From assembly GCA_964016885.1 (NCBI GenBank), contig OZ024755.1:3844001-3908000 (forward strand): DNA of 64,000 nt. The letters run 5' to 3'. Below the pieces are notes generated by a model. The model was not told the origin of the DNA and made no database searches. It saw only the letters and a list, made by a program, of their open reading frames with translations. Positions 9,002 through 58,294 of the stretch are shown one piece after another. Position 1 is the stretch's first letter. Every line of letters starts with the position of its first letter. Origin of the DNA: Eledone cirrhosa (lineage: Eukaryota). The position numbers and the translations under genes are program-made.

Positions 9002-9098
9002 ATAGAAAGGCTTCTACAAGACTAGAACTGTTTCATTCGGGAAGCCCTGATGATTTCTCCCGAATGAAACAGTTCTAGTCCTGTAGAAGCCTTTCTAT
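9002..9098 (+). other. 41-bp-arm palindrome containing a hammerhead core (CTGATGA..GAAAC)
   Basis: Arms match with 1 mismatch around a 15-nt loop; CTGATGA at 9047-9053, GAAAC at 9066-9070. The right arm recurs at 33848-33900. Confidence 0.7.
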
Positions 9099-9464
9099 AT
9101 TAAATATTTGTAGTCTGCTTTGTATTGAGTACCTTACTTACTGTGGATACCCCCGATTGAACCTGGGATAAACTTATCTATCCATATCTCTCTTTCTCTT
9201 TCTCTATCCATATCTCTCTTTCTCTTTCTCTCTCTCTCTCTCTCTCTCTCTCTCTCTCTCTGTGGGAGAGAGAAAGAGAATTTTGTTCCACAATAAATTA
9301 GCAAACCATATTCGTGTTTCACCGGACGGATTTTCAACCCATGTATGGTTGTGGTGAGAGAATGGAGAAATTCACGTCTGCAGCCTTGAGTGGCCATAAA
9401 TGGCTTTCCAGCTTCATGGACGATCACTTATCAGGGTGTATAAAGGAAGTCGTCTGATGGTTAA

Positions 9465-9530
9465 GGAAGCGTTGTTGGTTTTATCAGATAGAATGTTTTT
9501 AATGTCTCTGCTAAGTTTGTTTTGGAAAAG
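9465..9530 (-). pseudogene. Small PLE RT fragment
   Basis: Minus strand reads FQNKLSRDIKNILSDKTNN, resembling the motif in the 621-1570 relic. Confidence 0.4.
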
Positions 9531-10097
9531 ACTAGAGTGTTTGCAGAAAGTAATTAAGAAGGAAAATGTAATTGTTTCTACTTTTGGCACAAGGCCAGCA
9601 ATTACTCAGTACGTTACTGGTACTTTATTTTATCGACCCCCGTAAGGATGAATATAATGGTCAGGGCTTTGAGCCAATATTTCTAAAATTATAATTGTTT
9701 TTGTAGACCTGGATGTTCCCACTAGCAACCAAACCTATTACCTGCGTCAATTACAGTAAAAGATTAATTCCATTGAGGGAGGAGGGGTGAATTGCCAATC
9801 AAATTATCAACCTTAACAAGGACATTTTGTTTGTTAATCGTTATTCTAAATGGAAATTATGTTCAATAAACAGATGCTAGTTCGTTTCTTAATTCAAACA
9901 ATCGCACCAGTACTTTCAGGCAGCCATTGTAATTCATTATTCGGCAGAAGAGTTTTCTGGTTACTTCTCATTTCATCACATGAAGTAGTAAAAAAAAACT
10001 AAAAAAAATCAGGCGTGTTCAACGGTTTAGTCTTAACAAAATTAATTATCTTTACTGCTTCGTCAAGGACAGTTTAATCAAAGCTATTATTTGTATT

Positions 10098-10472
10098 AAG
10101 GGCGGTGGATTGGCAATATCGGTAGAGAGTCTGACGCCATGCTTTCCAGCATAGTTACGTACCTTTAAGGTCTGAATTCAAATCCTGCCGAGGTTAACTT
10201 ACGGGGTCGATAAAATAAAGTACCAGTAATACACAGGGATAATTGCTGGCCTTGTGCCAAAAGTAGAAACAATTATTTTATAGGGTGTATTGGCAGTATC
10301 GGAAGAGGGTCTGACGCCATGCTTTGCGGCAAAGAATTACGGCCCTTTACGGTATGAGTTCAAATCCCGCCGAGGTTAACTTTGCCTTTCATCCTTACGA
10401 GGTCGATAAATAAAGTACCAGTAATACACACTGGGATAATTGCTGACCTTGTGCCAAAAGTAGAAACAATTA
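10098..10472 (+). mobile_element. Two tandem Meta/MESC-like SINEs
   Basis: Two heads (GGATTGGCA.TATCGG, GAGTTCAAATCC), two cores and two AGTAGAAACAATTA tails. Confidence 0.88.
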
Positions 10473-11125
10473 TACTTTAACCTTTCATCATTTTTACTTT
10501 CCAAACACAAAAACAAACAACTTAATGTGATTAAATGGTTTCCTACTTTAATTATAATTTCGTCTTTCTCATATTGTTGTTGATTTTCTTCACTACATAT
10601 TGTTATTTGATTGTTTGTGGCTTTTAAAATATACTATCTTGTTTCTTTTTTAATATATTTTCTCTATCAACAGACCGTTACCGTTTCTCAGGCAATTTCT
10701 ACTTGATCTTTTTTGCTGTTTTCTTTCTAGATTTTCTTTCCTTATTTGTCATTTTTTTGTTATTTTATTTTTTTCTCGTTCTCTTCCGTAACCTCTTTAC
10801 CTCCTCATAGTTTCTTTCATTCATTATTTCTCATCCTACCTCTCTTTCGATTATCCTCCCATCACTTTTTTCCTCTCATCACATTCTATCCCTCACTATA
10901 TATATGTACACACATACATGTTTACATATATATATATTTGTGTGTGCGTCTCTCTCTCTCTCTCTCTCTCTCTCTCTCTCTCTCTCTCTCATATATATGA
11001 ATGTATGTATAGTATATTTGGCATTATACCGTATGTTTAATTAAAAACATTTAGAAGACCATACGCTATCAGTTTTAAAGTAGTGACTATGTCACTTACT
11101 TCTTTTCGGCGAAAGAAGGGAGAGA

Positions 11126-11167
11126 AGATGACAGTCTGTTTCACGCTGGTTGGCGATCATCAGAGCC
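11126..11167 (-). ncRNA. Near-intact minimal type-I hammerhead ribozyme
   Basis: Minus strand: GGCT-CTGATGA-T-CGC caacca GCG-T-GAAA-CAG a CTG-TC^ATCT. Core intact with a GUC site; stem I has a mismatch. Confidence 0.7.
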
Positions 11168-57300: not shown

Positions 57301-57364
57301 TATATATATATACACACACACACACATATATACGTGTGTATGCATGTGTGTATGAAGTGTGTGT

Positions 57365-57524
57365 GTATACATCCCTCTCTTTAAAATTACATTAGCAGCT
57401 CAGCCGTCGTGCCAGTATAATATACACTCACATACATACATGTGTATCTGAGTGAGTGTATATTATATTGACTGTATGACAGGTCTACTGGGCTGGTAAT
57501 GTAATTTTAAGGAGGGGGTATACA
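57365..57524 (+). other. ~160-nt imperfect foldback hairpin
   Basis: CTTTAAAATTACATTA/TAATGTAATTTTAAGG, CAGCTCAG/CTGGGCTG, GTCGTGC/GTATGAC, CAGTATAATATACACTCAC/GTGAGTGTATATTATATTG. Confidence 0.8.
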
Positions 57525-57562
57525 TACATACATACATACATACATACATACATACATACATA

Positions 57563-57857
57563 ATTACAAATACAATCCATTAATGGAACAGTAAAAATAT
57601 GTAAAACATTCCCAAAATGTTGCATCTAATAACTGCATATACACATGTACAGATACAAAGCATATACACATGCACACATACAACTCAAAACATACACATC
57701 CACGCATACAATAACATCCATATCTACAAATGCAGACATACATACATATCTACCTAGTTGATGTTGTGTAAATTCCAATGAGAGAGTCTTGTGTCTATGT
57801 TAGAAACCAACTCTCTCTCTATTGGTAAAACTTTGTGAAATTATAAAACCAGAAGAA
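57563..57857 (+). mobile_element. 3'-terminal fragment of the same RLE LINE as 25344-26163
   Basis: QSINGTVKICKTF..CCI* followed by a homologous 3'UTR ending CCAGAAGAA-(CATA)n. Confidence 0.88.
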
Positions 57858-58253
57858 CATACATACATACATACATACATACATACATGTACATACATGT
57901 ACATACATACATGTACATACATGTACATACATACATATATGTACATACATGTACATACATACATATATACACACATTCATTCACACATACATACATCTCC
58001 TTAAAATTACATTAGAAGTCTAGCCAATTCATCAGAACATACCAGCTCTCTAGTAATAGTACTTTTGTTCCATTGCCATCTCTTATTTCTACGTTTATGA
58101 TATATATAATGATTTATATATATAAGTATGTATACGTACATACATATATGTATACAGACGTACAGTAGTATGTATATATATATATATACATACATGCACA
58201 CATATATATATGTACGTATGGATTCACCGATCATTTATTATAATGCTCGGTGT

Positions 58254-58294
58254 GTTTGCTGACGATAGCTAATAAGCTTGAAACTAGTACAGCG
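58254..58294 (+). ncRNA. Minimal type-I hammerhead ribozyme (same family as 35245)
   Basis: GTTTG-CTGACGA-T-AGCT aata AGCT-T-GAAA-C ta G-TA^CAGCG. Confidence 0.68.

What the first reader, a model, noticed from the sequence alone, without database searches (positions are those of the whole stretch)
9002..58294. Several apparently unrelated short elements with hammerhead cores, sharing a U.U pair at the base of stem II
Seen: HHR cores at 9047 (and 33848), 11126, 35245 (and 58254) and 41000 lie in sequences with no obvious mutual homology, all within or beside microsatellites. Three families have CUGANGA-U...U-GAAAC, i.e. U10.1.U11.1 instead of the canonical G-C pair, and a very short, mostly palindromic stem III (ACUAGU, ACAGACUGU). 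Decayed PLE RT relics occur in the same window. Inference: a diverse population of microsatellite-associated, PLE-mobilised ribozyme elements with a recurrent HHR variant. I do not know whether it has been catalogued in this lineage.
Basis: partly seen in the sequence, partly recalled or inferred. Interest (0 to 1): 0.75.

Follow-up and report, generated by a model that had tools for sequence, protein, structure and literature searches.

The report
Penelope-borne hammerheads with fixed U·U mismatch
These are real hammerhead (self-cutting RNA) motifs from known kinds of jumping elements: two are ends of Penelope-type retrotransposons and two are small tandem repeats likely moved by them, and their odd U·U mismatch is fixed in tens of thousands of copies rather than decay, but it has been seen before in other animals.

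Summary
The cores are there and far exceed chance: 91,896 U…U cores genome-wide vs 402 for the control pattern. U·U is not decay. With both positions left free, the first 100 copies were U·U in 98 (family A) and 97 (family C), none G-C. Family B is split 47 U·U / 47 A-U. Family A (27,425 cores) is the 3' end of a young Hydra-clade-like Penelope element: 20 of 20 copies picked by their ORF carry it downstream, behind a ~2.4-kb microsatellite that travels with the element. C (435 bp, 26,953 cores) and B (~317 bp) are retrozyme-like repeat units. D is G-C and probably another Penelope end. All end at two fixed sites, mostly against (TA)n. Only 2 of the 6 window copies have all three stems intact. 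Prior art is close: a natural U10.1·U11.1 variant (Perreault 2011), ~60,000 axolotl retrozyme ribozymes with U·U that cleave (Cervera 2020), and 14 of 25 Hydra-clade ribozymes in Craig 2021's supplement. The scan already reported such arrays elsewhere in this genome. Cleavage and circles are untested. New members of known kinds.

The parts
9002..9173 (+). Family A: 3' end (pLTR) of a Hydra-clade-like PLE. Core 9047-9053, U10.1 9054, U11.1 9065, predicted cut after 9085. The 5' strand of stem I is replaced by an inverted arm (9002-9046), so the copy folds as a plain hairpin: dead remnant.
   Evidence: (87% over 127 bases to the pLTR of intact copy L320)
33848..33904 (+). Family A, 5'-truncated inside the core (C3 and 5' strand of stem I missing), between (TA)n tracts; short-end form
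10992..11338 (-). Family B: one ~317-bp unit plus a short terminal direct repeat; core at 11163, U·U; one mismatch in stem I relative to most copies
35055..35539 (-). Family C: main arm 35348-35055 (-) with intact ribozyme (core 35280) and inverted arm 35352-35539 (+) ending against (TA)n 35537-35594; the arms stop at the family's two fixed ends
58143..58367 (+). Family C, second copy: inverted arm 58143-58258 joined just 5' of the core (58259); only 3 bp of stem I left; 3' part cut short
40943..41214 (-). Family D: intact G-C type I hammerhead (core 41049, stem III of AU repeats) with an inverted tail piece, flanked by (TA)n; probably the end of another Hydra-type PLE
1089..1436 (+). Decayed Hydra-type PLE RT fragment with stops
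   Evidence: 30% over 116 aa, E 1e-6
9361..9477 (-). Decayed Hydra-type GIY-YIG region
   Evidence: 59% over 39 aa, E 2e-10
57068..57145 (-). Short relic of a second PLE type (Neptune-like; label from my recall)
   Evidence: 62% over 26 aa, E 6e-8

Best explanation
The window holds pieces of four high-copy mobile families with type I hammerhead motifs: family A is the 3' end of a young Penelope-like retrotransposon with Hydra-clade motifs, D is likely the same kind of end, and B and C are non-coding repeat units of the retrozyme kind that are likely copied by a Penelope enzyme. U·U at the base of stem II is the inherited state of A and C and one of two states in B, likely a tolerated, weakening variant kept by selection. 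Proposed cycle (steps inferred): transcripts through tandem units would be cut by pairs of ribozymes joined through the palindromic stem III; B/C monomers would circularise; the PLE endonuclease would nick (TA)n and the RT would prime at two fixed internal RNA sites. That would give the observed two fixed 3' ends, 5' truncation and inverted second arm.
For: Counts. Free-position tallies: A 98/100 U·U across 19 different loop II sequences, C 97/100, B 47 U·U and 47 A-U of 100. Compensatory stem I changes in A and C. 20 of 20 PLE copies chosen by their ORF end have the A ribozyme downstream, 13 of 20 with an inverted copy upstream; L320 has pLTR-ORF-pLTR with an open frame. A second U·U family (E) lies 175-206 bases behind Hydra-type endonuclease ends at 5 loci. 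Tandem units of 435, 310 and ~317 bp, GC 0.35-0.39, circular folds more stable than shuffles. 3' ends within 20 bases of (TA)4: A 55/63, C 22/27, B 35/51, E 7/8, G 5/6 vs 7.3% background. Two fixed ends per family, matching the PLE 'tail' made by two RT start sites (PMC11167929).
Against: No cleavage, transcript or circle was observed. No PLE ORF was found attached to B or C, and neither shares more than the ribozyme with a PLE end, so the helper is unidentified; a second PLE type is also abundant. In the anole PLE, cleavage was not needed for insertion in vitro and no reads ended at the cut site. Only 4 of 62 fetched B cores and 17 of 60 C cores have a tandem neighbour in 3-10-kb loci. In the structure-filtered sample U·U is only 15 of 62 hits, A-U 19 and G-C 18. 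Recent bursts from few masters can mimic conservation.
Confidence: 0.8

Rival explanations
1. U·U is neutral hitch-hiking: a few master elements happened to carry a weakened or dead ribozyme and amplified; nothing selects for U·U.
For: Copies are young (up to 100% identical). B and G carry both A-U and U·U. Hydra-type ends in this genome also carry G-C or A-U ribozymes. Cleavage was dispensable in vitro for one PLE.
Against: In A, U·U and the stem persist across 19 loop variants and compensated stem I variants. U·U recurs in families without detectable shared flanks, and in 14 of 25 Hydra-clade rows from cnidarian, echinoderm and crustacean hosts. The axolotl U·U ribozyme cleaves.
Confidence: 0.2
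2. B and C are satellite DNA spread by DNA-level recombination or rolling circles; the ribozyme is a passenger from an old PLE end and no RNA circle is involved.
For: Tandem arrays exist; no RNA evidence was obtained.
Against: Dispersed copies stop at two fixed unit positions against (TA)n and come as inverted two-arm insertions, as the autonomous PLEs do. Random DNA circles would give permuted ends.
Confidence: 0.1
3. B and C are pLTR fragments of autonomous PLEs whose ORFs were not sampled.
For: Family A looked equally ORF-less until a 3-kb UTR was crossed.
Against: B, C and G units repeat head to tail with no room for an ORF; none of 75 C and 33 B cores had a PLE hit within 700 bases upstream.
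Confidence: 0.08

Closest known systems
Hydra-clade Penelope-like elements (Craig et al. 2021, PMC8557442; passages and supplement part 2 read)
   Same: C-terminal GIY-YIG, RW[K/R], DKT, CxCX5C linker, CxxC and CxH flanks, (TA)n targets, inverted 5'-truncated copies, 3' hammerhead; 14 of 25 listed Hydra ribozymes read CUGANGA-U…U-GAA (my reading of File S2).
   Different: Element A is ~5.6 kb against the usual <3 kb because of a ~2.4-kb microsatellite UTR. The passages I saw call the ribozymes canonical and do not remark on U·U. Their one octopus Hydra row is not U·U.
Metazoan non-LTR retrozymes, especially axolotl Rtz_353 / HHR_Amex2 (Cervera and de la Pena 2020, PMC7229834; parts 2-3 and passages read)
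   Same: Low-GC tandem units of 150-450 bp with one type I hammerhead each; ~60,000 axolotl motifs with U·U at the base of helix II and a 2-bp helix III, cleaving weakly as monomers and well as dimers.
   Different: Here several U·U families coexist with autonomous PLEs bearing the same variant; insertions are two-armed with fixed ends; expression is untested.
Natural U10.1-U11.1 core variant (Perreault et al. 2011, PMC3088659; passages read)
   Same: Same mismatch; stated to be the best-tolerated mispair.
   Different: Reported there among rare variants; here about 10^5 cores.
PLE minimal hammerheads (Cervera and de la Pena 2014, PMC4209133; parts 1-2 read)
   Same: Many families per genome, mostly solo truncated PLE ends, palindromic stem III.
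   Different: That consensus has conserved G10.1-C11.1 with an extra 5' nucleotide, the form counted here, not U·U.
SSR-carrying Penelope elements of penaeid shrimp (Yuan et al. 2021, PMC7878876; passages read)
   Same: Microsatellites move inside young PLE copies.
   Different: Here a single ~2.4-kb composite tract lies between ORF and ribozyme.

Membership tests
Type I hammerhead ribozyme | CUGANGA, GAAA and UH core joined by stems I-III in type I order | tested here: met
   intact in window copies 35280 and 41049 and in family A copies elsewhere
Type I hammerhead ribozyme | Compensatory change in stems | tested here: met
   stem I variants in A and C; counted by script, no phylogenetic correction
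Type I hammerhead ribozyme | Canonical G10.1-C11.1 pair (conserved, with known exceptions) | tested here: not met
   0 G-C in the first 100 of A, B and C; U·U is a described active exception
Type I hammerhead ribozyme | Match to an Rfam hammerhead model | tested here: inconclusive
   35227-35298 aligns to HH9 at 15.4 bits, E 0.22, far below the gathering score of 52
Type I hammerhead ribozyme | Site-specific self-cleavage | not testable with these tools
   needs a bench assay
Hydra-clade PLE (family A) | Single ORF with RT and C-terminal GIY-YIG | tested here: met
   open frame in L320 with YRDD and a GIY-YIG-like region; Pfam weak: GIY-YIG E 0.077, no RVT_1; relatives match an RVT_1-positive ORF at E 4e-7
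Hydra-clade PLE (family A) | RWK, DKT, CxCX5C, CxxC/CxH, no CCHH | tested here: met
   read by eye in the translation against the definition; RWR stands for RWK
Hydra-clade PLE (family A) | pLTR with hammerhead, (TA)n targets, inverted copy, tail | tested here: met
Hydra-clade PLE (family A) | Typical length under 3 kb (descriptive) | tested here: not met
   about 5.6 kb
Hydra-clade PLE (family A) | RT phylogeny inside the Hydra clade | not tested
Non-LTR retrozyme (B, C) | Tandem 150-450-bp low-GC unit with one type I hammerhead | tested here: met
   B is mostly solo
Non-LTR retrozyme (B, C) | Predicted highly paired circle | tested here: met
   C -131 vs -86±5.5 kcal/mol; B -80 vs -56±5 (40 doublet shuffles)
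Non-LTR retrozyme (B, C) | Expressed as linear and circular RNA | not testable with these tools
   no RNA holder listed

The most novel reading that the evidence does not exclude
U10.1·U11.1 is an ancient, selected hallmark of Hydra-clade Penelope ribozymes that damps cutting so that it needs a tandem partner. The U·U retrozymes of this genome descend from and ride on Hydra-clade enzymes, giving a natural system in which an intact young PLE, its retrozyme parasites and A-U/U·U allelic ribozymes can be tested together. The same PLE also spreads kilobase microsatellites, its own target sequence.
Probability: 0.3. Interest if true: 0.65.

Novelty: new member of a known kind. Interest (0 to 1): 0.38.

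Why it matters
It shows that a hammerhead variant missed by G-C-based descriptors can number about 10^5 in one animal genome, and ties it to a defined PLE clade. Which enzyme moves animal retrozymes is still open; here an open-frame PLE, matching insertion geometry and a natural A-U/U·U pair make that testable. The components are all of known kinds, and the scan has reported the arrays before, so the gain is incremental.

Tried and rejected
Rfam on the whole window: the 150 listed of 277 hits were microsatellite-driven, with no hammerhead among them. The repeat finder was swamped by (TA)n. Pfam on 121 window ORFs of 60 aa or more: no RT. The first 1.5 kb behind 30 PLE copies held no ribozyme (0 of 30); it lay further on. 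No RNA holder listed for family C; the two guessed-RNA runs laid nothing, and the third run gave contigs only. A tree of 49 B and 12 G copies was star-like: 13 changes of the 10.1 base vs a shuffled mean of 15 and minimum of 10, so A/U could not be assigned to subfamilies or polarised. Tail lengths differ among PLE ends (about 65-90) and retrozymes (59; about 35) and do not identify the helper. A strict scan for the SGC-permuted hammerhead found 0 in 800 kb plus the window, a weak negative. Looser cores at 4754, 17545, 48512 and 59996 matched no fetched locus and were dropped. A YRDD motif at 26039 is on the strand opposite a non-LTR relic and was rejected as PLE. The idea that family A's UTR drives the genome's microsatellite load was rejected as small: its landmarks were not found in the window and appeared in 1 of 80 sample loci (6 overlapping words), while about 16% of the sample is SSR. 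The protein atlas did not answer. Lünse et al. 2017 (recalled) was not held, and the PMC id I guessed was another paper; it may describe such variants.

Full report
Observation. A core search found every named motif: 9047 (+), 11163 (-), 35280 (-), 41049 (-), 58259 (+), and a copy at 33848 that has lost C3. I call the families A (9047, 33848), B (11163), C (35280, 58259) and D (41049). A, B and C have U at 10.1 and 11.1; D has G-C. The window lies in a 3.0-Gb genome; an animal, and by earlier scan notes a cephalopod, which I did not test. A three-stem descriptor with 10.1/11.1 left free gave 62 hits in 80 evenly spaced 10-kb stretches against 0-2 in each of five shuffles, and 3 in the window against 5 in 30 shuffles together. 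The four window elements share no homology beyond matches of 26 bases or less.

Abundance. With matched 8-30-base gaps: U…U 132,835 (control 6,652), G…C 56,043 (9,851), extra base plus G…C 44,845 (12,580). These are patterns, not folded ribozymes. In the structure-filtered sample U·U was 15 of 62, A-U 19, G-C 18, G-U 6, others 4; 10 of the 15 were short-stem families. U·U is thus one of the three common states, and possibly the commonest.

Decay or inheritance. With both positions free, A has 27,425 matches, C 26,953 and B 557 (controls 0; tight patterns, lower bounds). Among the first 100 listed (all on contig 1, tandem copies counted singly, tallied by eye): A 98 U·U and 2 U-A over 19 loop II sequences; C 97 U·U, 1 C-G, 2 C·A; B 47 U·U, 47 A-U, 6 other (first 30 checked by script: 12, 16, 2). 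A tree could not order these states.

Family A. One copy lay directly before a PLE-like ORF. I searched with that ORF's 3' end (1,580 candidates, 40 scored, many 100% identical) and fetched 10 kb around 20 of the 30 loci returned. All 20 have the U·U ribozyme on the same strand 2.8-3.3 kb behind the stop (5.3 kb in one with a nested G array); 13 have an inverted copy upstream; L320 is pLTR-ORF-pLTR with an open 758-codon frame. Its protein has RWR, DKT, YRDD, CxCX5C, a GIY-YIG-like region and CxxC/CxH flanks, the Hydra-clade marks of Craig et al.; Pfam support is weak and I built no RT tree. The 3' UTR holds about 2.4 kb of composite TA/TG/TATG repeat that belongs to the element: 394-833 of 974 unique 16-mers are shared in order with each of 19 other copies (rho 0.76-0.99), against 0-29 for seven window tracts; aligned columns are 93-99% identical in 19 copies, L326 left out. 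This holds for one young subfamily; another has the ribozyme 455 bases behind its ORF. Both window copies are truncated ends without the 5' strand of stem I; the 9047 copy folds as a hairpin.

Families B, C, D. C is a 420-435-bp unit (some near 480) in tandem and inverted arrays. B is a ~317-bp unit, mostly solo (4 of 62 tandem), 69% identical to the 310-bp array family G. Units are 35-39% GC and fold as circles more stably than shuffles. Their stem III sequences are palindromes that pair only between two molecules in ViennaRNA. D is G-C (8 of 11; 3 G-U); a related ribozyme lies 1.1 kb behind a Hydra-type endonuclease end, and D's tail precedes such a fragment at one locus, so D is probably a PLE end too. 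Family E, U·U and not in the window, follows Hydra-type ends at 5 loci.

Insertion marks. 3' ends lie within 20 bases of (TA)4 in 55/63 (A), 22/27 (C), 35/51 (B), 7/8 (E), 5/6 (G) against 7.3% of 16,000 random positions (loci were chosen by similarity, and B's own end is TA-rich). Each family has two fixed ends: about 70 bases apart in A, 90 in D, 35 in B/G and 59 in C. In vitro the PLE tail reflects two RT start sites (PMC11167929, passages). Shown: motifs, family states, ORF linkage of A, end geometry. Inferred: cleavage, dimer action, circles, and which PLE moves B and C. The same paper found cleavage dispensable for insertion, so the role of A's ribozyme is open.

What is known. Perreault 2011 reports natural U10.1-U11.1. 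Cervera 2020 describes ~60,000 axolotl retrozyme ribozymes with U·U that cleave, better as dimers. Craig 2021's File S2 lists 25 Hydra-clade ribozymes, 14 of which read U…U by my count (two rows identical), while the one octopus row does not. Li et al. 2026 (bioRxiv 10.64898/2026.07.22.740005; abstract and parts 1-2 read) derive retrozymes from PLEs. An Octopus vulgaris repeat paper has no occurrence of 'ribozyme' (PMC13282606, term search). Five searches listed no paper on cephalopod hammerhead families or on U·U as a Hydra-clade trait; subscription papers, figures and bioRxiv supplements were not visible. SSR-carrying PLEs are described in shrimp. The scan's own notes already cover the arrays in this genome.

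Verdict. Real, abundant and inherited, correctly read as PLE-related, and made of known kinds. What is added here: the tie between U·U and Hydra-type PLEs in one genome, the A-U/U·U dimorphism of B, and the long microsatellite UTR. Interest 0.38.

Noticed in passing
L311-L330 (e.g. L320:2960-6150): Young Hydra-type PLE carries a ~2.4-kb collinear composite microsatellite in its 3' UTR, C-poor on the sense strand; it roughly doubles the element's length.
   Followed up: yes
window 35594-35780 (-), 41260-41312 (-), 50150-50375 (-): Three truncated ends of another very abundant two-ended family (over 100 matches in fetched loci). They keep the GAAA block and a long stem III but lack the CUGA block; the few longer copies (L245, L013) suggest the known U3-A8 core variant.
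   Followed up: partly
L266, L267, L243, L326: Family G: 310-bp two-armed tandem arrays related to B, with U·U in most and A-U in some arrays; one array is nested in a PLE UTR.
   Followed up: partly
listings: At least ten further hammerhead families, among them 466-bp arrays with G-C, a G-C family tied to a second PLE type (PLE hit upstream of 20 of 33 cores), and further U…U families with long stem II.
   Followed up: partly
window 25500-26170 (-): Decayed C-terminal zinc-knuckle/endonuclease-like region of a non-LTR retrotransposon (R4/Dong-like by my recall).
   Followed up: no
window 5462-5823 and 48717-49345: Near-perfect minisatellites of 40 bp x 9 and 36 bp x 17.5.
   Followed up: no
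L168:2173-2919 (-): ORF with a strong Pfam HtrL_YibB match (E 5e-16), a family described as bacterial.
   Followed up: no
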